DNA of 64,000 bases from positions 1 to 64,000 of the IMG/VR virus record IMGVR_UViG_3300033049_000041; one strand, 5' to 3'. This document shows, piece after piece, positions 31,471 through 52,241 of this stretch. Source of the DNA: a virus. The stretch's first letter is position 1. The number at the start of each line of letters is the position of its first letter. The notes beneath the pieces are model-generated. The model ran no database searches. It was not told the origin of the DNA and was given only the letters and a program-made list of their open reading frames with translations. A program made the translations under genes and the position numbers.

Positions 31471-31820
31471 TATTTCATTTGATTATTATTACCACCCAAT
31501 ATACTATTATTATTTCCTATTAGTATGTTATTATTACCATGTACAGTACAGCTATAACCAGTAACTTTATTGTTATTTCCACTAACATCAATATCATTAC
31601 CTGATACCTTATTATTATTGCCAATAACATGAACATTATTACCTGAGAATGTAGAATTATTCATCTTAACAGTCCTCTTAGACCATTTTCCTAGTTTAAC
31701 GACAGATAACTCCACTTTCTTCTTTAAAGGCTTCTTAGCGTAATTTGTACCACAATAATCACACGTAGTAGCATCTTCTAAGATAGGTGCTGTACAAGCT
31801 AAACATTTTAATATTTCCAT
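31470..31820 (-). CDS. Zinc-ribbon protein with GNNN beta-solenoid repeats
   Basis: CLAC...CDYCG followed by ~7-residue GNNN repeats; start taken at ATG 31820. Confidence 0.7.
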   Translation of the reverse strand: MEILKCLACTAPILEDATTCDYCGTNYAKKPLKKKVELSVVKLGKWSKRTVKMNNSTFSGNNVHVIGNNNKVSGNDIDVSGNNNKVTGYSCTVHGNNNILIGNNNSILGGNNNQMK

Positions 31821-31835
31821 GATTATTATTTTTAG

Positions 31836-31932
31836 TACCAAAAGAAGGACTCGAACCCCCAGTCACTTTACAATCAATTACTAGCACATTGAGTGTTTCA
31901 TAAAGCCGCTTTGCCAATTAGCGTATTTCGGT
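31836..31932 (-). ncRNA. tRNA-like RNA with extended non-canonical anticodon arm
   Basis: ACCGAAA/TTTTGGT-A-CTA, D arm CGCT/AGCG, T arm GGGGG-TTCGAGT-CCTTC, AC stem CTTTA/TAAAG capped by an extra hairpin. Confidence 0.6.
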
Positions 31933-31976
31933 ATGAATTAGAAGGAATCGTATATCCTAGATTCCCTCTAATTTTT

Positions 31977-32230
31977 GTAACTACTAGTATTCAATAGATC
32001 TTTAGCTAAGAGACTCTTGTTCTACCACTGAACTACACGTCCATAGCAAGTAATGAGATGCTTCTAGGCAGTCATTACTCGATTGGTTTCACCCATTTGG
32101 AGCAATCCAATTGAGGACGTGGTGGGAATCGAACCCACGACGTAGAGATTAAGGTATCTATTGACGTTCATAAATGCTTCAATCTAAAGCTTGACTCACA
32201 AAACTAAATCTAAAAGGCTAGTGTTGCTAC
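31977..32230 (-). ncRNA. Circularly permuted tRNA-Lys(CTT)-like RNA opened at the anticodon loop
   Basis: 3' half (32114-32153) precedes 5' half (32007-32042); GGACGTG/CACGTCC acceptor; flanks pair via TCAATAGAT/ATCTATTGA. Confidence 0.78.
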
Positions 32231-32260
32231 ATCTAATGCTAAAGCTTAAAAGTCATATTT

Positions 32261-33058
32261 TTAAAGACCAGCATGAAGGTAATCAAATACCTTCAAACCT
32301 AAGTCTGATTTTTTAATTTCTACTGAGTTAGCTGATTCTAATGCCTCTATTACAGCAGTATATAGAGTATTAAAATTCGTAATAACTCTGGCTCTCAATT
32401 GAATTGAAATCTCACCTGAGAACTTCTGTTCAGTATAAGTACCTGTTTGAACAAGTTCCTTACGAGCAGACTTCACTGGTGTTCTATTTTGCCCAGGATT
32501 GTTATCTTCTAGAATATACTCTGTTGTATTAGTAGTTCTAGTTACACCTTCGTACAACTCATTCTCATAAACACCAGTACGTGCAAAATCCTCATTTTCT
32601 GAAACTTTCCACATTTCATTTTGTTCTCTAACAGGTAAAACCGCATAGATGTCTCTCAACTTAGATTTCTCTAAAGTTGATTTCAATCTCAATAATTCCA
32701 AAGAACTGTATTCACCCCAAGACTTTCCTTCAACTATCAATTCTGCTTTTACAACTCCAGAAGCATTAGTTTTCTCAATAGAGAAAACAATTTCCATGTA
32801 ATTTTCAGCAGATTTAGCCATGTAATCTAGTTGCTCCTTTACAGTAGCTGATACATATTTAGTAGCAATTCTATTCTCTTCAGGTAAATATGGCTCAATC
32901 GCCTTATGAGTTTTCTTTACTCCTAGGTACAATCCTTGCTTATTCTTTAAATTAGATAAAGCATTACTTGTGTTGTTTTTAAATTCACCTTCTCCTCGCT
33001 CTCTAAGTCCAATATATGTACCTAGAGTTTGTTTTCTAATTGGGTTATTATCTGACAT
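32261..33058 (-). CDS. Conserved uncharacterised protein (resembles the family recalled as DUF7873)
   Basis: TNA...A.LIVEG, ELLRLKS.L, LPV, GTYTEQKFSG, ALESAN, GLKVFDYL pattern; family name from memory, needs HMM check. Confidence 0.6.
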   Translation of the reverse strand: MSDNNPIRKQTLGTYIGLRERGEGEFKNNTSNALSNLKNKQGLYLGVKKTHKAIEPYLPEENRIATKYVSATVKEQLDYMAKSAENYMEIVFSIEKTNASGVVKAELIVEGKSWGEYSSLELLRLKSTLEKSKLRDIYAVLPVREQNEMWKVSENEDFARTGVYENELYEGVTRTTNTTEYILEDNNPGQNRTPVKSARKELVQTGTYTEQKFSGEISIQLRARVITNFNTLYTAVIEALESANSVEIKKSDLGLKVFDYLHAGL

Positions 33059-33101
33059 GTTTTTTTACTTTTCCTTTTTACTAAATCTAATTCTAAAATT
33101 G

Positions 33102-33248
33102 GGTGGGTGATCGGACTCGAACCGACGACCTTTCATTTAACAGATGATAATGCGAAGTAACTTATGAAAATCAGTACTACCGTAGTAAACAAATGTATTC
33201 TAAGTATAAAAATGCATAAATGCTCTAACCAACTGAGCTACACCCACC
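33102..33248 (-). ncRNA. Module-bearing tRNA-like RNA 3 (module between D and anticodon arms; His-like acceptor, GTT loop)
   Basis: GGTGGGTG/CACCCACC, D arm GCTC/GAGC, ~70 nt insert with TACTGA...TAAGT-TACTTCG, TCAT-CTGTTAA-ATGA, T arm GTCGG-TTCGAGT-CCGAT. Confidence 0.8.
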
Positions 33249-33253
33249 GTTTG

Positions 33254-33721
33254 TTATTTTAAATATCCAAAATCAATTAACCATTCATCAATCTTCTTAT
33301 ATAAATCTCTAGGTATTTTAATCCTATTATATCTCCATTCTATGTTATTATGAAATGATACAGTATTATCATCAGTGTGAAATGATAAGTAAGGTCTATA
33401 TTCACCATCCAATGCAACATAAGAACGAAATCTAATAATACTACCATTAAAACCAACGTAAGTTTGATTATTACTACCTGACTTAACTTCCGTTACAGTT
33501 CTATTCATACATACTAATTGGGCATGACCAAAACTAGTTAAAGGTTTTCTCTGGTCTGAACAGCAACATAATAATAGTATATAATCCTTTAAGTACATTG
33601 CAGGTATAAAATGCTTAACATGTACAGGTATCTGATACTTATTAAACAATTCTGCACGTTTCTTTATAGAGAAATCTTGATAATTAACAACCGCTATTAA
33701 TTCTGATACTATCTTATTCAT
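33254..33721 (-). CDS. Hypothetical protein
   Basis: 155 aa ORF. Confidence 0.6.
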   Translation of the reverse strand: MNKIVSELIAVVNYQDFSIKKRAELFNKYQIPVHVKHFIPAMYLKDYILLLCCCSDQRKPLTSFGHAQLVCMNRTVTEVKSGSNNQTYVGFNGSIIRFRSYVALDGEYRPYLSFHTDDNTVSFHNNIEWRYNRIKIPRDLYKKIDEWLIDFGYLK

Positions 33722-33734
33722 TTGATGTATTTAG

Positions 33735-33880
33735 CGGAACTATCGGGATTTGAACCCGATAATCTCTGAGTAGACAACCCAGAAAAATTACGAAGTAACA
33801 TAATTAATTAATATTCCGTTGAAAGGAAATGAAGGCAAACTATGACTATACGTAACGCTCAACCATTGAGCATTAGTTCC
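33735..33880 (-). ncRNA. Module-bearing tRNA-like RNA 4 (module between D and anticodon arms; Asp-like)
   Basis: GGAACTA/TAGTTCC-G, insert TTACG...GGAA-TATTAA-TT-AATTATGT-TACTTCGTAA, AC CTGGG-TTGTCTA-CTCAG. Confidence 0.8.
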
Positions 33881-33887
33881 ATATTAG

Positions 33888-33960
33888 TGATCCCGCAAGG
33901 ACTTGAACCTTGAACCTCCGTGTTAAAAGCACGATGCTCTACCAGTTGAGCTACGAAATC
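33888..33960 (-). tRNA. tRNA-Lys(TTT)
   Basis: AC TCGTG-CTTTTAA-CACGG. Confidence 0.92.
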
Positions 33961-34061
33961 ATTTAGTCCTTTGTTAATATATTATAGTTTTTACCTGCTA
34001 TGTACACTACAGGCTTTAATATACTCACTTAACTCCACAAGGACTAGATGGATGCTTTTAA

Positions 34062-34147
34062 TGGGTCACATAACGAGATTCGAACTCGCTAATCTTTCGA
34101 TACTGGTACCACAAACCAGCCCAACTCTCCAACTTTGGCGTATGTGA
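34062..34147 (-). tRNA. tRNA-His(GTG), atypical, with long variable arm
   Basis: TCACATA/TATGTGA-C-CCA, AC CTGGT-TTGTGGT-ACCAG, variable hairpin ATC-GAAA-GAT. Confidence 0.75.
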
Positions 34148-34172
34148 AATCTTAAATATCTTGATAATTGTA

Positions 34173-34382
34173 TTAATCTTCTTCTTCTTCTTCGTAGTAG
34201 TCAGTAATAACATCAGTTATACTTAACGACTCTTTTACTAATGGCGCTCCTCCAACACTTAAATGGTAGAAATCATCTAATTTCTCTAAAGCTCTCTTCT
34301 CAGCTTCTTCCTCACTAAGTCCAGTAGTATCAATGCTAAAATTGAAGGTAATTGTTCCTTCAGTATAGTATTCCTTTTTCAT
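34173..34382 (-). CDS. Small acidic hypothetical protein
   Basis: 69 aa ORF. Confidence 0.55.
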   Translation of the reverse strand: MKKEYYTEGTITFNFSIDTTGLSEEEAEKRALEKLDDFYHLSVGGAPLVKESLSITDVITDYYEEEEED

Positions 34383-34492
34383 AATTCTTCTTTAAAAGGA
34401 GGATAGACTAACTACTTCCTATCCTCCATACTTTCCTAAACATATACTTCCTATGAAAAAGTATAAAAACATCATAATAATAACAATGCTTG

Positions 34493-34564
34493 CGTCCCAG
34501 GAGGGATTTGAACCCACGACCATTCGGTTAACAGCCGAGCGCTCTACCACTGAGCTACTAAGAC
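34493..34564 (-). tRNA. tRNA-Asn(GTT)
   Basis: AC CTCGG-CTGTTAA-CCGAA, G73. Confidence 0.92.
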
Positions 34565-34688
34565 GTAAATGAGAGTACCCTAACAATACTCCCGTTGGTG
34601 TACACCTTGATACTAAACCCTATGTCATCTGCTAATTAGGATAGCATAGTCTTCGTTTTGTATACCCAATTCCGAAGAATTTTTTATA

Positions 34689-35315
34689 CTATTCGGAAGA
34701 CAATATGGCTTGCATCAGTTTCTTTTCGTTATCACTAAAGTACTCAGGAAATTTCTTAAGTATCATACTATATGACTTCTTAAAATCTCCAGCAATAACT
34801 ATACTTATTTTATTATACAACTTTAAAGTGATGTAATGATATACATCCTCTTTCAATAAGTGTTTGTAGTTATGTTCCTTAATTCTAAATGTTCTTTCGA
34901 ACTTTCTTCTCTTATTCTTACTCCATGCAGAAAGTAATTCATCTGCTAAATCTTTTCTTCCTCTGAAATAAAAGGTAAATAAGTTTAACATTTCATCTGT
35001 AATATTGTTTACTCTTAGGCTTACCATATTATAATTTTCAAAGAAGTTAACAATTTTAGTTTTACCATGAAATCCAGCTAACATAATTAATTCAAATAAT
35101 TCAGCTTGCTCTAGTATATCACTTTTTAATGCTTTTACTAAATCTATTACAAAACTCTTATCTGTATAATCATAGTATCCTAGATGAAATCGTTCTTCAT
35201 CTTTTCTAAAGGTAACATATCCTGCAAACATAAATCCAAAACCACCAATTCTATGATGAGGATAGTAAATAGTACCCCTTTTAATATAGGGATATAATAT
35301 GGAGTCTGGTTGCAT
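34689..35315 (-). CDS. Hypothetical protein
   Basis: 208 aa ORF. Confidence 0.65.
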   Translation of the reverse strand: MQPDSILYPYIKRGTIYYPHHRIGGFGFMFAGYVTFRKDEERFHLGYYDYTDKSFVIDLVKALKSDILEQAELFELIMLAGFHGKTKIVNFFENYNMVSLRVNNITDEMLNLFTFYFRGRKDLADELLSAWSKNKRRKFERTFRIKEHNYKHLLKEDVYHYITLKLYNKISIVIAGDFKKSYSMILKKFPEYFSDNEKKLMQAILSSE

Positions 35316-35373
35316 GATATGGATTTGAATTGTGTAATAAATTGAGTGGTCGGGGTAGCAAGATTCGAACTTG

Positions 35374-35760
35374 CTATAAAGAATTTATAAATTCAGCATG
35401 ATAAGAAGTAACTTCATCTTCAATAAGATGTTTAAATCTACTATGCCAGTATTTATGATGAGTAGGACATAAGGGTATTAAATTTTCTATAGAATTATTA
35501 GTGTGATTTCCATCAAAATGATGTACTTCTACAATATTAGATTCTTTACAAATTACACATGATTTTTCATGTTGTAGAAAACAAGTACTACGATAGCGAG
35601 ATTCTTTCCAATTAGGATTATTCTTACCACTTCTAAAATATGTATTTGAACATGAATGTGAACAAGTAGTTTTCTCTCTTGGAGACCCTTGTTTAGTTTC
35701 AAATTCGTTATCGCATACAGGACAACTTTTAATTATCCTGTTATATACCTTTCTACTCAC
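35374..35760 (-). CDS. HNH endonuclease with N-terminal zinc finger
   Basis: CPVC...TCSHSC, NNPNWK, CVIC...VHHFDGNHTNN...NLIPLCPTHH; likely GTG start 35760 because the listed TTG lies inside the tRNA. Confidence 0.85.
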   Translation of the reverse strand: MSRKVYNRIIKSCPVCDNEFETKQGSPREKTTCSHSCSNTYFRSGKNNPNWKESRYRSTCFLQHEKSCVICKESNIVEVHHFDGNHTNNSIENLIPLCPTHHKYWHSRFKHLIEDEVTSYHAEFINSL

Positions 35761-35774
35761 AACTTGTAATTGAG

Positions 35775-35849
35775 TATGGGTGTCCAGATTCGAACTGGAA
35801 ATCTCTTGCTCCCAAAGCAAGTGCCTTAACCTGATTAGGCTACACCCAT
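35775..35849 (-). tRNA. tRNA-Pro(TGG)
   Basis: ATGGGTG/CACCCAT, AC CTTGC-TTTGGGA-GCAAG. Confidence 0.9.
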
Positions 35850-35937
35850 ATATCCCTTATGTCTTATTCTTTCTTTTACTAACTCATTAACTGAGCTATA
35901 CCCCGAAATGTCGAATTTAATCGACTATATTGTAAAT

Positions 35938-36489
35938 TTATGCTATACTTATATCTATCTCTAGATTATAAGCATCAACATGAAAGTGATACTTTTCTAT
36001 GATGAATTGTAACATTGATTTGTATATTCTTTTATTATCCATTAAAATGTATGAATTATCATCAAAGTAAGCATACAGATTTTCTAATGTACTAATATAG
36101 AATGTCTTACATCCTATACTTAAAAGTTTCTCTTCTACACTAACAACCCAATCATTTCCTAATGTATACGGTGAACATAAAGCAGCACTGTGTATATGTG
36201 CATAAGCTTTATCTAGCCGTTTCTCAGTATGAATATTTCTTAGTGTTGCAGAATCACTAGGTCTCCAATTACTACCAAAACAAATAAGATATTCATACTT
36301 ATAGCTAACTGAAGATACTACTGCAGTTTTAGATTGCTCTGTTCTTATAGCATAATCCAAATAGCATTTTCTATGGAACTCTTTAATCTCTGTAGTACTA
36401 CCTTTATAATAGTAATAGAACTTCTTATGTGCTCTACTAATGTGTTTCTTAATCTCCTTCTTCCTCGCTCTCTCCTCCTCCTTTGTCAT
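35938..36489 (-). CDS. Hypothetical protein
   Basis: 183 aa ORF. Confidence 0.6.
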   Translation of the reverse strand: MTKEEERARKKEIKKHISRAHKKFYYYYKGSTTEIKEFHRKCYLDYAIRTEQSKTAVVSSVSYKYEYLICFGSNWRPSDSATLRNIHTEKRLDKAYAHIHSAALCSPYTLGNDWVVSVEEKLLSIGCKTFYISTLENLYAYFDDNSYILMDNKRIYKSMLQFIIEKYHFHVDAYNLEIDISIA

Positions 36490-38628: not shown

Positions 38629-38706
38629 GTAAATAAATAAATAAATAGGTGGCTGCGTGTATACCCAGCTCTTTTCTCTCACACTTACTTAGAGACCTAT
38701 TTAAAA

Positions 38707-38822
38707 TAAGGGGAACTAAAGTAAAGATAGTAATATGGCGGCATCGAAACCGCAACTCTTGAATAAAAATCAAACGCTAAACCAATTAGCACGAAGTAAC
38801 TATCTTAATCAGTATCCCCTTA
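38707..38822 (-). ncRNA. Module-bearing tRNA-like RNA 5 (module replaces the acceptor end)
   Basis: TAAGGGGA-TACTGA-TT-AAGATAGT-TACTTCG, D arm GCTA/TAGC, AC TTGA-TTTTTAT-TCAA, T arm GCGG/CCGC, closed by ACTATCTT and TCCCCTTA. Confidence 0.8.
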
Positions 38823-39600: not shown

Positions 39601-39658
39601 TTGCGAGAAAAGGAGTCGAACCTCTACAAAACTGCTCTACCAGTTAAGCTACCTCGCA
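39601..39658 (-). ncRNA. Anticodon-less mini-tRNA (58 nt)
   Basis: TGCGAGG/TCTCGCA-A-CTA, D arm GCTT-AACTGGTA-GAGC, short linker, T arm AGAGG-TTCGACT-CCTTT. Confidence 0.72.
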
Positions 39659-44651: not shown

Positions 44652-44800
44652 TAACAAGCAAACGAAAATACATAGACTGAAAATTAATGTGCCAGATTTA
44701 CTATCTAGTGCCTTAACCATTTGGCTAATTCGGCATGAAGCCAAATACAGGACTCGAACCTATAATACGAAGTAAGTCTATGTTTTAGTATTGCTTGTTA
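44652..44800 (-). ncRNA. Module-bearing RNA 6: circularly permuted tRNA opened at the variable loop
   Basis: TAACAAGCAA-TACTAA-AA-CATAGACT-TACTTCG, then T arm, closed acceptor ATTTGGC-TTCAT-GCCGAAT, D arm, AC CTAGA-TAGTAAA-TCTGG, closed by AGTCTATG and TTGCTTGTTA. Confidence 0.82.
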
Positions 44801-44805
44801 ACTCT

Positions 44806-45822
44806 TTAAACTACATACAAATCTTTTGCAGTTAGTTTTATTTTGTGTTGTTTTACCACATCTTCCCAATCCTTGTAATTGGATGGTGGTAAATATTTAT
44901 TCTCTTTTCTATTATACTCTCCTCTAACTCCAGTGATTTGCCACATAGAATCTGTTGCTGCAGATTTAACTCCATCATCAGTTCCTCTAGTTAATGAAAA
45001 GAAATCATTTCCTGGAAAAGATACATGATCCCATGCAACTAAACTAAAGAAACTAATACCTTCATCAGGTCTAAATAACTGAGGTCTAGGTTGTTTACTA
45101 TTCAAATAAGGTCTAGATGCAAATAATGTTTTACCTCCAATTACCCAACTCTGGTCAACACCAACAGAATACGGATCGTACCATATCCCGAGTATGTTAG
45201 TCCACTTAGTTTTATAGTCTTCTAGTAACTCTAGTAACGTTGCTAACAGCAAGGTATGAACTTCTGCTTTATGTTTCCCTGCAAACTGACCACATCCAAT
45301 TCCAGGAATAGTCACCATTGCAGGAACTCCTTGCTTATTAGCCTTTTCACTAATGTAAGTAAATACTGGAATAAGCTTTTCTCTAACCAATTCTTTATAC
45401 AACTCAGGTACTACTTTACCGTTCTTAACTATATCATAATCTACTGGAGTAATTGTACCAGCAGCTCTAAGAAGTGGTCCAGGAACGTAAACTAATGTAC
45501 CATGAAAAGGTGTTCCGTGTAATGCTGGATTCTGATGTTTACCATCATCATAAATAGTCACTGGAACAGCAACACTTATATTACCAAGCACTTTTAGTTC
45601 CGCATTAGTCCAATCAGAGCCATCACCTTTAATTTCAGATTCAGCAAACATTTCTGGTTGCTTTGTCTCAAGTAGAAAATCTAACTTAGATTCCTTAGAT
45701 AACGGTATTCTTGCCATGCAGGGAAATAACGTAGTATTAGAAAAATTAGTTCCAGCATCACAAAGACTAAAATTCTCTAATCTTTGCATATTCTTCTTAG
45801 AGGTAATTATTGTATAATTCAT
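44806..45822 (-). CDS. MavL/Larg1-like macrodomain (putative ADP-ribosyl glycohydrolase)
   Basis: PGIGCGQFAG loop and VAWDHVSFPGNDF...TDDGVK match the Legionella MavL-type catalytic region as recalled. Confidence 0.7.
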   Translation of the reverse strand: MNYTIITSKKNMQRLENFSLCDAGTNFSNTTLFPCMARIPLSKESKLDFLLETKQPEMFAESEIKGDGSDWTNAELKVLGNISVAVPVTIYDDGKHQNPALHGTPFHGTLVYVPGPLLRAAGTITPVDYDIVKNGKVVPELYKELVREKLIPVFTYISEKANKQGVPAMVTIPGIGCGQFAGKHKAEVHTLLLATLLELLEDYKTKWTNILGIWYDPYSVGVDQSWVIGGKTLFASRPYLNSKQPRPQLFRPDEGISFFSLVAWDHVSFPGNDFFSLTRGTDDGVKSAATDSMWQITGVRGEYNRKENKYLPPSNYKDWEDVVKQHKIKLTAKDLYVV

Positions 45823-46022
45823 AATGTTTGAAAGTCTTTAATTTCTTCTAAAAATACAACTCCTTCCATCGAAATTTCTTCATCTTCTTGCAGTAACTTA
45901 TCATTACCTTTAGTCAATAGAAAGTTGTTTATTTCATCATTAGTAGGAAAAGTAGGATGTTTTATAAAATACATATAATCATCATTGCTTTCACTGCTAG
46001 TAGTTAATACGAATTTACGCAC
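45819..46022 (-). CDS. Hypothetical protein
   Basis: 67 aa, coupled to neighbours. Confidence 0.6.
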   Translation of the reverse strand: MRKFVLTTSSESNDDYMYFIKHPTFPTNDEINNFLLTKGNDKLLQEDEEISMEGVVFLEEIKDFQTL

Positions 46023-46537
46023 TAAAATAATCTTTTATGAGTTAAGAATGCTCCTTCCTTTTCCATATCAGCAATGACATCATGTCTTTCAATGCAAATG
46101 TGTACGTAATCGTCCGTATAATTCTCTCTACAAGTCTCGCATTCATAAGCTAGCCATTTGCCATACTCAGAAATTAAAGTCTCTAAGAATGGCTTTACAT
46201 AAAGTACTCTATGTCTAGGTGCAGATAGTTCACAAGTAACAATTCCTTTCTTTGTATTAAACTCATTAAATAGAGTTTCTAAAGTTTCTTTAAGGACATT
46301 AGCTATCTCCCATTCCTTATGTAGAGCTTCTAATGCTTTGTTGCGATTTCTTAATTGTGACCTTTCAGTTTTAGATTCAAATGTAAAGTCAAGAACCTTA
46401 CATGTTAAAGTCACATTCTCACTTATTCTAGCAGGTATGGAGGTCATTGAACTCATACGTATATCACCTATATGCCACTCTACTTCATTCTTAGTGAACT
46501 CCTTGAACTTAGGGTCATCTATTTCTTCCATTCCCAT
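46022..46537 (-). CDS. Protein with a release-factor (RF-1) domain-like segment lacking GGQ
   Basis: TERSQLRNRNKALEAL matches the RSQxxNxxxAxxxL helix motif. Confidence 0.5.
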   Translation of the reverse strand: MGMEEIDDPKFKEFTKNEVEWHIGDIRMSSMTSIPARISENVTLTCKVLDFTFESKTERSQLRNRNKALEALHKEWEIANVLKETLETLFNEFNTKKGIVTCELSAPRHRVLYVKPFLETLISEYGKWLAYECETCRENYTDDYVHICIERHDVIADMEKEGAFLTHKRLF

Positions 46538-48734: not shown

Positions 48735-48898
48735 AAGGGAGCAAACAAAGCGATTCAAACTGTAATGTAATAAGCTAAATCCCAATTCTAGTGTGTCTAC
48801 CAGTTCCACCACCGCCCATTTAATTGACATACTGGTCGGGCGGGAAGGATTCGAACCTCCAAATACGAAGTAAGTTTGAAAATTAGTATTGCTCCCTT
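48735..48898 (-). ncRNA. Module-bearing RNA 7: circularly permuted tRNA with internal ACCA and linker
   Basis: AAGGGAGCAA-TACTAA-TT-TTCAAACT-TACTTCG, T arm GGAGG-TTCGAAT-CCTTC, CCGCCCG-A-CCA, 14 nt linker, TGGGCGG, Leu-type D arm, AC CTAGA-ATTGGGA-TTTAG, closed by AGTTTGAA and TTGCTCCCTT. Confidence 0.82.
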
Positions 48899-51754: not shown

Positions 51755-51857
51755 ATTTGTATCTTAAGTTAATAAGCTTTGTTTATACCCAACTTAATGG
51801 TTCCAGGAATAATTTAGACGGGTTTCCTGATTTCTTTACCGTACTTATTAACCATTG

Positions 51858-52241
51858 TGGAGCTGCGGGGAGTCGAACCCCGGTGTTCCCACTTTCAATT
51901 AAAATTTCTACAAGTTTAGTAGTATCTTTAGATAGTTCTTCTCGTTGGGTGATTCTACGTACCTTCCTGAGTATAGTTACTGATATACCATACAAGCCAT
52001 AACTTCTTGTAATCCTTTTCCGAGTAATCGTGTTCGTGTATAACGGAGCAGTAATATCGGAGTCAACAGGCTCTACATTATTTGACGAGTAAGGTTAGTC
52101 GAAACTAATCTTAAGCCGCCATACGAACTGGTGCATAAGCTCCATCTAAGGTTTACCTTCAATATTTATTAATCGCTTATCAAGCCTCAGCGATACTTGC
52201 TTGTTCTAACATCTAAGTGGGAGTCGAATCCAGTCAGCCCC
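51858..52241 (-). ncRNA. ssrA: tmRNA
   Basis: 5' GGGGCTGACTGGATTCGAC, 3' CGGGG-TTCGACT-CCCCG-CAGCTCC-A with G3-U70; tag ORF 52111-52143 encodes (A)GAYAPVRMAA-stop. Confidence 0.93.

What the first reader, a model, noticed from the sequence alone, without database searches (positions are those of the whole stretch)
33102..33880. Class B module RNAs: full tRNAs with the module as a fifth arm, one a His/Asn chimera
Seen: at 33102-33248 and 33735-33880 the module is itself permuted (partner strand first, capped by a loop) and inserted between the D and anticodon arms, leaving acceptor, T and anticodon arms intact. The first has G-1:C73 (His identity) but loop CTGTTAA (Asn); the second has G73 and GTC (Asp). 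Established: His, Asn, Asp and Tyr are the GUN queuosine family; RNA 6 has a GTA loop. Inference: potentially chargeable, protein-tethered tRNAs or decoys for GUN-specific nucleases or TGT.
Basis: partly seen in the sequence, partly recalled or inferred. Interest (0 to 1): 0.75.

Follow-up and report, generated by a model that had tools for sequence, protein, structure and literature searches.

The report
Whole tRNAs carrying a Ro60-docking arm
Two RNA genes in the tRNA array of a marine phage are complete tRNAs that carry an extra hairpin arm of the kind that marks "Y RNAs", the small RNA partners of the Ro60 protein this phage also encodes. They look like a new build of a known RNA class rather than tRNAs with introns.

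Summary
On the minus strand, 33102-33248 (B1) and 33735-33880 (B2) are full cloverleaves. Each carries a ~70-nt hairpin between nucleotide 26 and the anticodon stem. With the arm removed in a script, ARAGORN calls tRNA-Asn(GTT) and tRNA-Asp(GTC).

The arm is a circular permutation of a two-stranded module that closes five other tRNA-like RNAs in the contig. This module belongs to the Y RNAs encoded beside phage Ro60 genes:
- A covariance model built only from 13 such RNAs of other phages finds the three class A copies here (E 1e-7 to 2e-5).
- The same model gives 46 hits in 70 Ro60 loci, all on the Ro60 strand.
- The contig encodes a Ro60 orthologue at 53048-54880.

Best reading (0.6): B1 and B2 are Y RNAs whose effector domain is a whole tRNA with free acceptor ends and a real anticodon loop. 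Known YrlA RNAs lack both.

Charging, the His/Asn "chimera" function and the decoy role for nucleases that cut GUN-anticodon tRNAs remain untested. I found no relative with this build and no RNA data. This is a new variant of a known kind.

The parts
33102..33248 (-). B1: 147-nt tRNA/Y-RNA hybrid. It has G-1:C73, a 7-bp acceptor stem, D arm, inserted module arm, anticodon hairpin with loop CUGUUAA (GUU) and T arm. No CCA is encoded.
   Evidence: Rfam tRNA 45.2 bits with 85 nt skipped; five-arm fold -33.3 against a minimum of -33.4 kcal/mol; ARAGORN tRNA-Asn once the arm is removed.
33148..33220 (-). B1 inserted arm. Basal helix AUGC/GCAU (33217-33214 / 33153-33150). P2 ACUUAGAA/UCAUAAGU with one bulge. 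loop3 UACAUUUGUU. P1 UACUA/UAGUA capped by CGG. loop5 CUGAUUU. Box UUACUUCG at 33160-33153.
   Evidence: The loops match those of copies A3, C1 and C2.
33735..33880 (-). B2: 146-nt tRNA/Y-RNA hybrid. It has acceptor GGAACUA/UAGUUCC, G73, D arm, inserted module arm, anticodon arm with loop UUGUCUA (GUC) and T arm. It starts 6 nt after tRNA-Lys (33887-33960).
   Evidence: minimum-energy fold is the five-arm fold, z -5.9; ARAGORN tRNA-Asp once the arm is removed.
33783..33856 (-). B2 inserted arm. Basal helix GUUACG/CGUAAU. P2 CAUAGUU/AAUUAUG (7 of 7 pairs). loop3 UGCCUUCAU. P1 UUCC/GGAA capped by UUUCAAC. loop5 UAUUAAUU. Box UUACUUCG at 33798-33791.
   Evidence: The loops match those of copies A1 and A2.
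53048..54880 (-). Ro60/Rsr orthologue (610 aa, TROVE family). It is the proposed partner of the module.
   Evidence: 465 homologues at E <= 0.001; those listed are about 37% identical over 99% of the length, nearly all carry PF05731, and some are named 60 kDa SS-A/Ro; phrog_850, E 5e-20; the family profile hits phage phiLo Ro60 (9KOP/9L5Y, E 1e-30) and human and Xenopus Ro60. On its own the protein scores only E 0.0028 against Pfam TROVE.
20852..20977 (-). A1: the module closes a tRNA-like body (D, anticodon-like and T arms) in place of the outer acceptor stem. Loop UUUCAGG.
   Evidence: Model R1: 42.6 bits, E 1.4e-7.
26086..26216 (-). A2: same build as A1. ARAGORN calls the body 'tRNA-Stop (tta)'.
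   Evidence: Model R1: 33.9 bits, E 2e-5.
38706..38822 (-). A3: same build as A1. Loop UUUUUAU.
   Evidence: Model R1: 33.8 bits, E 2.1e-5.
44657..44795 (-). The module joins the two ends at the variable-loop position.
48744..48893 (-). C1: permuted tRNA as in C2. It has a 7-bp acceptor stem, an encoded ACCA, a 15-nt closing loop and anticodon loop AUUGGGA.

Best explanation
B1 and B2 are Y RNAs, the small RNA partners of the Ro60 ring protein, built in a topology not described before.

The body is a complete tRNA of normal strand order, with free 5' and 3' acceptor ends and a 7-nt anticodon loop. The Ro60-docking stem is present as a capped hairpin that leaves the cloverleaf between nucleotide 26 and the anticodon stem. 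In other Y RNAs that stem is formed by the two ends of the molecule.

Proposed working:
1. The RNAs are transcribed within the phage's tRNA array and cut out by RNase P and the 3'-end enzymes, like their neighbours. They fold into the tRNA L shape.
2. The arm projects from the hinge. This is the region where long variable arms leave class II tRNAs, and where the module leaves the permuted class C RNAs of the same phage.
3. The phage Ro60 binds the conserved internal loop and bulged helix of the arm.
4. The tRNA body then couples Ro60 to proteins that hold tRNAs: end-processing, charging, modification or repair enzymes, anticodon nucleases, or the ribosome.

Shown here: the architecture, the homology of the module to RNAs encoded beside Ro60 genes, and the Ro60 gene itself.
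Inferred: Ro60 binding, processing, absence of splicing, and the effector.
For: 1. The tRNA frames are real.

2. The arms keep every element of the module found in five other RNAs of the contig. The helices differ in sequence and still pair. P2 is different in all seven copies; six pair 7 of 7 and B1 has 8 pairs with one bulge.

3. The module is the stem of RNAs encoded beside Ro60 genes elsewhere.
- In 13 simple hairpin RNAs from 9 other loci, 13 of 15 predicted pairs show compensatory changes.
- Model R1, built from those 13 alone, finds A1-A3 of the window over its full length at E 1.4e-7 to 2.1e-5.
- In 70 metagenomic Ro60 loci (713 kb, both strands) it gives 46 hits at E <= 0.001. All 46 are on the Ro60 strand, and 8 are its own training sequences.
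- 19 of the 23 loci whose Ro60 is at least 33% identical to this one have a hit. 3 of the 4 misses have fewer than 70 nt upstream of the gene.
- In 3 whole phage records, 8 of 9 exact boxes lie within 2.3 kb of the Ro60 gene. The ninth is in coding sequence.

4. In Streptomyces phage Satis, three RNAs with T arm, closed acceptor stem and D arm lie directly upstream of the annotated 'Ro-like RNA binding protein'. All three carry GGUUACUUC about 8 nt after a ..GCGA(A/C).. motif. The box therefore corresponds to the conserved YUAY of YrlA (PMC4201824, parts 1-3 read).

5. The contig encodes a Ro60 orthologue on the same strand.

6. There is a precedent for a free acceptor end. M. smegmatis YrlA is cut by RNase P and receives CCA in vivo while bound to Rsr (PMC4201824). 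That leaves the same parts as B1 and B2, but in two pieces.

7. The module of B2 resembles the A1/A2 subtype, and that of B1 the A3/C1/C2 subtype. The two are therefore not recent copies of each other, yet they share the insertion site.
Against: - There is no RNA data at all. Expression, ends and splicing are unknown.
- I found no second genome with this build: none in 94 Ro60 loci or in 3 whole records. The architecture therefore rests on two paralogues in one metagenomic contig.
- The motif tied to Ro60 binding in known Y RNAs (GNCGAAN0-1G, or CGAA) is absent. Its place is taken by AUAYURAUU. Binding is inferred from homology of the whole stem and from gene neighbourhood.
- B1 and B2 lie 19-20 kb from the Ro60 gene, against 4 kb or less for published YrlA.
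- Model R1 cannot score a permuted stem. It also missed C1 and C2, so B1 and B2 are tied to the family only through their likeness to A1-A3. The strand-only HMM gives them weak E values of 0.8 and 1.6.
- No Rfam family other than tRNA matched.
- B1 folds no better than shuffles overall (z -1.3). B2 departs from tRNA invariants (A8, U37).
Confidence: 0.6

Rival explanations
1. The arms are small introns. They are cut out and the halves ligated, giving extra ordinary tRNA-Asn and tRNA-Asp.
For: - In B1 the five bases right after position 26 (UUUAU) can pair with AUGAA. Removing nt 34-105 would then leave a perfect 5-bp anticodon stem, and ARAGORN accepts that product as tRNA-Asn.
- Other tRNA-like genes of the array carry insertions, for example 31836-31932 with 29 extra nt in the anticodon loop region.
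Against: - B2 has no such alternative strand.
- The intron-like fold of B1 is 5.3 kcal/mol worse than the five-arm fold.
- The same module closes five RNAs that would have no acceptor stem or no continuity without it.
- It also occurs as cargo-free hairpins beside Ro60 genes.
- At 72-74 nt the arm is far below group I size, and Rfam reports no intron family.
- I saw no bulge-helix-bulge at the borders (by eye).
- The window already has tRNA-Asn and tRNA-Asp.
Confidence: 0.1
2. B1 and B2 are relics: tRNA genes disrupted by insertion or recombination of a Y-RNA stem, no longer functional.
For: - Only this contig shows the build.
- B2 has A8 and U37. B1 has a weak anticodon stem and a short repeat (UUAU..CAU) on both sides of the insert that looks like an insertion scar.
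- Both anticodons are redundant with normal tRNAs of the array.
Against: - Every helix of both tRNA frames is intact: 7, 4 and 5 pairs in the acceptor, D and T stems.
- The conserved loops of the module are kept.
- The two copies differ in nearly all helices and in module subtype, yet have the same insertion point. This points to selection on the architecture.
Confidence: 0.15
3. The module is real but binds something other than Ro60, such as another phage or host protein, or serves as a processing or stability signal. In that case B1 and B2 are tRNAs tagged for that other factor.
For: - The CGAA-type motif is missing from this phage's modules.
- Most copies lie far from the Ro60 gene, scattered through the tRNA array at 4-32 kb.
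- Binding was not tested.
Against: - In other phages the homologous RNAs sit directly beside Ro60 and on its strand only: 46 of 46 hits.
- The build matches published Ro60-bound Y RNAs, with stem, internal loop, bulge and tRNA-like cargo (PMC4201824, parts 1-3 read; PMC12135203, passages read).
Confidence: 0.1

Closest known systems
YrlA (Y RNA-like A) of bacteria and actinophages; Chen et al. 2014, PMC4201824; structure in Wang et al. 2018, bioRxiv 10.1101/312249
   Same: - A Ro60-linked small RNA made of a docking stem and a tRNA-like domain with canonical D and T arms.
- The conserved YUAY (here UUAC) lies at the junction of stem and tRNA part.
- It is encoded on the Ro60 strand, often several per locus and next to tRNA genes.
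- Class C of this contig has the YrlA strand order.
   Different: - YrlA has the T arm 5' of the D arm, a closed acceptor stem, no free CCA end and no anticodon loop (10.1101/312249, passages read). Its docking stem is formed by the RNA's own ends.
- B1 and B2 have normal tRNA order, free acceptor ends and a 7-nt anticodon loop. Their docking stem is a capped side arm at position 26/27.
- The GNCGAAN0-1G motif is replaced.
- They lie 19-20 kb from the gene.
[quoted passage not shown]
   Same: In vivo it is a Ro60-bound RNA with an open acceptor stem of 7 bp ending in CCA. This is the nearest functional analogue of B1 and B2, and of C1, which encodes ACCA.
   Different: It is two pieces held together by base pairing and has no anticodon arm. 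B1 and B2 would be one piece and have an anticodon arm.
Deinococcus radiodurans Yrn1 (PMC4201824)
   Same: The docking stem is at the 5' and 3' ends, followed by a D-like region, an anticodon-like arm and a T arm. This is the order of class A here.
   Different: It has no acceptor stem, so the module is not a side arm.
Thermus phage phiLo Ro60 with Yrl1 and Yrl2 (PMC12135203, passages read); Bas63 gp130 (PMC11482910, passages read)
   Same: - A phage-encoded Ro60 with phage-encoded Y RNAs upstream.
- phiLo Ro60 and its Y RNAs form complexes with host PNPase.
- The Bas63 authors suggest that some 'tRNA genes' next to a phage Ro60-like gene may be Y RNAs. They report that gp130 counters the Ppl defence.
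   Different: The phiLo RNAs are described as stem-bulge-stem RNAs with a CGAA motif, not as tRNAs. For Bas63 no RNA was analysed.
Class II tRNAs (long variable arm), and tRNA genes with introns or permuted order
   Same: An extra helix leaves the hinge of the L. Permuted or interrupted tRNA genes exist.
   Different: The variable arm leaves between positions 44 and 48, not at 26/27, and carries no protein-docking module. Known introns are removed. (Recalled knowledge, not tested here.)

Membership tests
Y RNA, YrlA type | Encoded near a Ro60/rsr gene on the same strand | tested here: met
   The Ro60 orthologue is at 53048-54880 on the minus strand, and B1 and B2 are on the same strand. The distance is 19-20 kb, not the 4 kb or less reported by Chen et al. 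C1 lies 4.2 kb away.
Y RNA, YrlA type | Stem with the Ro60-contact motif (GNCGAAN0-1G / CGAA) | tested here: not met
   The motif is absent. The equivalent position holds AUAYURAUU in this contig and URGUAA in freshwater phages. Equivalence is argued from spacing to the UUAC box in phage Satis.
Y RNA, YrlA type | Conserved YUAY between the stem and the tRNA-like part | tested here: met
   UUAC lies within the box UUACUUCG in all 7 copies. The same box is in the three Satis RNAs and is invariant in alignment A5.
Y RNA, YrlA type | Homology of the stem to RNAs encoded beside Ro60 genes | tested here: inconclusive
   Met for A1-A3 (model R1, E 1.4e-7 to 2.1e-5). B1 and B2 cannot be scored by that model because their stem is permuted. 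The link is their likeness to A1-A3, C1 and C2 and weak strand-only HMM hits (E 0.8 and 1.6, ranks 5 and 7 in 85 kb).
Y RNA, YrlA type | T arm 5' of D arm, closed acceptor stem, no anticodon loop | tested here: not met
   B1 and B2 have normal tRNA order, open acceptor ends and a 7-nt anticodon loop. This is the point of difference.
Y RNA, YrlA type | Match to a curated Rfam Y-RNA model | tested here: not met
   No family other than tRNA and tmRNA reached threshold in the window or at E <= 1 to 10 around B1, B2, C1 and C2. The gathering scan also reported no Y-RNA family in 8 other loci, including Satis, so the miss says little.
Y RNA, YrlA type | Physically bound by Ro60 | not testable with these tools
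   This needs pull-down or gel shift.
tRNA | Cloverleaf with 7/4/5/5-bp stems and conserved U8, A14, G18G19, U33, purine 37 and GTPsiC-type T loop | tested here: inconclusive
   B1 meets all of these except a 4-bp anticodon stem (Rfam 45.2 bits). B2 has all stems but A8 and U37, and is found only after the arm is removed. A 70-nt arm at 26/27 is not a tRNA feature.
tRNA-His identity set (bacterial) | G-1 paired with C73; GUG anticodon | tested here: inconclusive
   B1 has G-1:C73 encoded, but its anticodon is GUU. Whether RNase P keeps G-1 is unknown. The window's own tRNA-His (ARAGORN only) has U at -1 and C73. The identity rule is recalled knowledge.
Ro60 / TROVE protein (the partner) | Full-length similarity to Ro60 proteins with solved structures | tested here: met
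   The profile of 27 sequences including the window's protein hits 9KOP/9L5Y at E 1.2e-30 over positions 13-514, and 9NEN and 1YVP at E 3e-10 and 4e-9. No fold was predicted.
Group I or archaeal-type tRNA intron | Group I core of about 200 nt or more, or a bulge-helix-bulge at the exon borders | tested here: not met
   The inserts are 72-74 nt. There is no Rfam intron hit. The borders form plain 4- and 6-bp helices.

The most novel reading that the evidence does not exclude
B1 and B2 are working adaptors. They are matured and charged like tRNAs: B1 by HisRS through G-1:C73 while showing an Asn anticodon loop, and B2 by AspRS. They carry the Ro60 ring on their hinge arm.

This would bring Ro60, and whatever nuclease it recruits, onto ribosomes or onto enzymes that attack or modify GUN-anticodon tRNAs. 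Alternatively they would bait such anticodon nucleases during infection.

They would be the first Y RNAs with a functional acceptor end and anticodon. They would also give a direct handle on what the tRNA-like domain of Y RNAs is for.
Probability: 0.2. Interest if true: 0.85.

Novelty: new variant of a known kind. Interest (0 to 1): 0.62.

Why it matters
The role of the tRNA-like domain of bacterial Y RNAs has been open since 2014. Known examples lack a free CCA end and an anticodon loop, so they could only be called mimics. Here one phage carries seven Y-type RNAs in three builds, and two of them are entire tRNAs with the Ro60-docking stem as a side arm.

If these RNAs are expressed and bound, several consequences follow:
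- Ro60 can be coupled to a molecule that the whole tRNA machinery should accept: RNase P, the CCA enzyme, synthetases, EF-Tu, and anticodon nucleases.
- The effector question becomes testable with standard tRNA assays.
- The docking stem tolerates circular permutation.
- Some odd "tRNA genes" in phage tRNA arrays may be Ro60 partners, as was guessed for phage Bas63.

For annotation, neither ARAGORN nor Rfam reports B2. The widespread Ro60-linked RNA family seen in the related loci is not reported by the Rfam scan either.

Tried and rejected
- **Exact-pattern scan of IMG/VR** with this phage's own module version. It gave 32 loci, about what chance predicts. Only L006 and L028 had a T-arm-like stretch after the box. 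Their records (47% GC) have no Ro60 match and no tRNA, so I dropped them.
- **Single-protein scans** for close relatives found nothing: Ro60, the DUF7873 neighbour and P0002. The contigs of the two closest Ro60 proteins (P0002 at 58% and P0003 at 47%) could not be fetched. The one metagenome scan did not return them.
- **Sequencing runs:** no RNA holder listed. Only DNA runs of one seawater study were listed, one of which may be the source.
- **blastn of 32000-36000 against named phages** gave only tRNA and HNH pieces.
- **Rfam** gave no Y-RNA family hit anywhere.
- **Script search for capped (class B) modules** in the 94 Ro60 loci, L006, L028 and the contig. Apart from B2, all hits were ends and starts of tandem RNAs or coding sequence. 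The script also missed B1 because its P2 has a bulge.
- **Other leads checked:** a 114-nt tRNA hit in L103 has no box. A box far from Ro60 in G004 lies in coding sequence.
- **Promoter and terminator scan** of 31500-35000 gave nothing above shuffles.
- **Vibrio phage Va1 Ro60 locus** showed no clear box RNA.
- **MAFFT pairwise alignment of B1 and B2** was out of register and was not used for counts.
- **Reading the box on the plus strand** as a CGAAG motif was considered and rejected. All tRNA arms and the Ro60 gene are on the minus strand.
- **Papers not held**: Sim et al. 2020 and Sim & Wolin 2018. They may describe further Y-RNA builds. I did not open the supplementary tables of Chen et al. 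2014.
Full report
**Setting.** The window is the first 64 kb of an 85-kb virus record.
- It has 32% GC, and nearly all genes are on the minus strand: 137 of 144 predicted ORFs.
- It carries replication genes: a family A DNA polymerase, a DnaB-like helicase, a clamp loader and a ligase.
- ARAGORN finds an array of 25 tRNA genes covering all 20 amino acids, plus a tmRNA.
- The only public run that holds the stretch is a seawater metagenome.

**The observation.** Read on the minus strand, 33248->33102 (B1) and 33880->33735 (B2) each contain every part of a tRNA in the normal order, with a long insert between nucleotide 26 and the anticodon stem.

B1:
- It has U8, A14, G18G19, a G15:C48-type variable loop and a canonical T loop.
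- Rfam's tRNA model scores it 45.2 bits by skipping 85 nt.
- A G precedes position 1 and pairs with C73.
- Its anticodon loop CUGUUAA is identical to that of the window's tRNA-Asn.

B2:
- All four stems are perfect, with G73 and loop UUGUCUA (GUC).
- It has A8 and U37.
- No tRNA finder sees it with the insert in place.

When the insert is removed inside a script, ARAGORN calls tRNA-Asn(gtt) and tRNA-Asp(gtc). RNAfold gives the five-arm shape as the minimum for B2 (-45.2 kcal/mol, z -5.9). For B1 the five-arm shape is within 0.1 kcal/mol of the minimum, although B1 as a whole folds no better than shuffles.

**The module.** The 9-mer GTTACTTCG occurs five times exactly, always on the minus strand. 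Two further copies start with C. All seven share one two-stranded design:
- 5' strand: P1, AUAYURAUU, 7-nt P2, UUACUUCG.
- 3' strand: P2', UANNUUUNU, P1'.
- The P2 helices all differ in sequence and still pair.

The design comes in three builds:
- **Class A** (20852-20977, 26086-26216, 38706-38822): the module replaces the outer acceptor stem of a D/anticodon/T body.
- **Class C** (44657-44795, 48744-48893): the tRNA is circularly permuted. The acceptor stem is closed by a loop, and the module joins the ends at the variable-loop position.
- **Class B** (B1, B2): the two strands come in the opposite order, P1 is capped by a 3- or 7-nt loop, and a 4- or 6-bp basal helix joins the arm to the cloverleaf.

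**What the module is.** The ORF at 53048-54880, on the same strand, is a Ro60/Rsr orthologue.
- Pfam TROVE alone is weak (E 0.0028).
- PHROG 850 'RNA-binding protein' gives E 5e-20.
- The protein search gives 465 homologues at E <= 0.001. Those listed are about 37% identical over 99% of the length. Nearly all carry PF05731, and some are named 60 kDa SS-A/Ro.
- A profile of 27 of them matches the solved Ro60 of Thermus phage phiLo at E 1e-30, and human and Xenopus Ro60.

I fetched 94 loci around Ro60 homologues. A generalised form of the module occurs in them again and again: URGUAA, 6-9 nt, GUUAC(U/A)UCG, closed by ...AAACA, P2', AUUCYC, P1'. It is often in tandem, just upstream of Ro60. It appears as bare hairpins, as class A and as class C.

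- With loop filters that played no part in detection, 31 of 64 candidates on the Ro60 strand pass, against 0 of 21 on the other strand.
- Thirteen bare hairpins from nine loci align well, and 13 of 15 predicted pairs show compensatory changes.
- A covariance model built from these thirteen contains no window sequence. It finds A1, A2 and A3 over its whole length (42.6, 33.9 and 33.8 bits; E 1.4e-7 to 2.1e-5), treating the tRNA body as an insertion.
- Over 70 metagenomic Ro60 loci it gives 46 hits at E <= 0.001, all 46 on the Ro60 strand. Eight are its training sequences, and several loci are near-duplicates of each other.
- 19 of the 23 loci with a Ro60 at least 33% identical to this one have a hit. 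Three of the four without have almost no upstream sequence.
- In three whole phage records of 161-254 kb, 8 of 9 exact boxes lie beside Ro60. The ninth is in coding sequence.
- In Streptomyces phage Satis, the three RNAs directly upstream of the annotated Ro-like protein have T arm, closed acceptor stem and D arm. Each carries GGUUACUUC about 8 nt after a GCGA(A/C) motif.

**Link to the literature.** Chen et al. 2014 (PMC4201824; I read parts 1-3 of the text) define YrlA by four features: a 5' GNCGAAN0-1G motif thought to contact Rsr, a conserved YUAY, a T arm, a closed acceptor stem-loop and a D arm.
- They show that M. smegmatis YrlA is cut by RNase P and gets CCA in vivo.
- They note that D. 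radiodurans Yrn1 has the other strand order.
- Phage Ro60 with phage Y RNAs and host PNPase is described for phiLo (PMC12135203, passages read).
- For Bas63 the authors guess that some tRNA genes next to a Ro60-like anti-defence gene may be Y RNAs (PMC11482910, passages read).

Class C here is thus the YrlA build and class A is the Yrn1 build, each with an added anticodon-like arm. The UUAC of the box is the YUAY.

I read passages of the six papers cited in this report (searches cover the two not named above). I found no description of a Y RNA that is a complete tRNA with the docking stem as a side arm. Two reviews were not held.

**How B1 and B2 most likely work.**
- In three dimensions, position 26 faces position 44. 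The arm of class B and the module of class C therefore leave the L from the same hinge, on opposite strands (inference from tRNA structure).
- A class C RNA opened by RNase P, as happens in M. smegmatis, would have the same parts as class B in two pieces. C1 even encodes ACCA after a 7-bp acceptor stem.
- I therefore read B1 and B2 as one-piece versions of an open-ended Y RNA. The tRNA body is matured with the neighbouring tRNAs; B2 starts 6 nt after tRNA-Lys. Ro60 docks on the arm, and the tRNA body engages tRNA-binding proteins.
- Which proteins those are is open. No RtcB, TGT, synthetase or PNPase gene was seen among the 113 predicted ORFs that I gave to Pfam, out of 144 predicted, and the contig is a fragment.

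**The His/Asn and GUN ideas.**
- The sequence facts are right. However, G-1:C73 has roughly a 1 in 16 chance of arising by accident.
- B1 lacks G73, which I recall as the discriminator AsnRS uses; the window's own tRNA-Asn has G73.
- The window's own tRNA-His has U at -1.
- Only 3 of the 7 module RNAs have GUN anticodons. The others are UCA, UUA, UUU and UGG.
- Two of the three GUN loops break tRNA rules: A33 in C2 and U37 in B2.
- These ideas remain possible but are not supported.

**Rivals.**
- *Splicing.* It is suggested only by an alternative 5' strand for the anticodon stem of B1. That fold is 5.3 kcal/mol worse, and B2 has nothing similar. The module is plainly a functional unit elsewhere.
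- *Decay after an insertion.* This cannot be excluded, because no relative with the build was found and no RNA data exist. However, both frames keep all their helices. The two copies also have different module subtypes (B2 like A1/A2, B1 like A3/C1/C2) and the same insertion point.
- *A partner other than Ro60.* This is possible because the canonical contact motif is replaced in this phage.

**Verdict.** This is a new variant of a known kind. Confidence in the main reading is 0.6.

Noticed in passing
window 31836-31932 (-): A tRNA-like gene (Rfam tRNA 38.4 bits) with 29 extra nt in the anticodon-loop region. ARAGORN does not call it.
   Followed up: no
window ~31990-32170 (-): Another circularly permuted tRNA-like unit. 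It has a T arm and an acceptor 3' strand (CACGUCC), then about 70 nt, then the matching 5' strand (GGACGUG) and a D arm. Upstream of the T arm there is a degenerate look-alike of the module box (UACGUCG after AUACCUUAAU). It may be an eighth, decayed member.
   Followed up: partly
window 35340-35820 (-): A T arm plus an acceptor 3' strand ending ACCA (about 35345-35378) lies directly after an HNH endonuclease ORF (35374-35820; Pfam HNH_2/HNH_3). The 3' end of the ORF holds a one-mismatch copy of the box. It may be a tRNA gene split by an endonuclease-bearing insert.
   Followed up: no
window 39601-39658 (-): A 58-nt mini tRNA-like RNA (Rfam tRNA 40.9 bits) with acceptor, D and T arms but no anticodon arm.
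   Followed up: no
window 34062-34147 (-): The only tRNA-His (GUG) is called by ARAGORN alone. It is 86 nt long with a 13-nt variable region and an encoded CCA. It has U at -1 and C73, so no G-1 is encoded.
   Followed up: partly
window 20852-20977 and 26086-26216 (-): Class A bodies carry suppressor-like loops: UCA in A1 and UUA in A2. ARAGORN calls A2 'tRNA-Stop'. ORFs read normally in code 11, so this is unlikely to mean a changed genetic code.
   Followed up: no
window 44806-45822, 46022-46537, 51857-52241 (-); L129 11624-12397: The tRNA and Y-RNA island also holds a MavL-type macrodomain protein (Pfam E 1e-94), a small RF-1-domain protein, a tmRNA and a second macro-domain ORF. Together they look like a translation-maintenance or counter-defence set.
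   Followed up: no
L033 4227-4375, L036 3801-3960, L110 1643-1800: In three other Ro60 phage loci a module 5' strand is followed by a short T-arm hairpin ending ...CCCCACCA or ...GGCACCA. This abuts one or more ordinary tRNA genes directly, and the matching 3' strand was not found. One of these tRNAs (L033) has the same GUC + U37 loop type as B2.
   Followed up: partly
L047 6942-7356; L036 5020-5178: Related Ro60 phage loci carry a GOLLD RNA (286 bits) and a permuted tmRNA inside the same tRNA and Y-RNA arrays.
   Followed up: no
Ro60 loci L033-L126 in general: The Ro60-linked hairpin/tRNA-like RNA family defined here (model R1) is abundant in large freshwater phages. The Rfam gathering scan does not report it. 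It may deserve a family of its own.
   Followed up: partly
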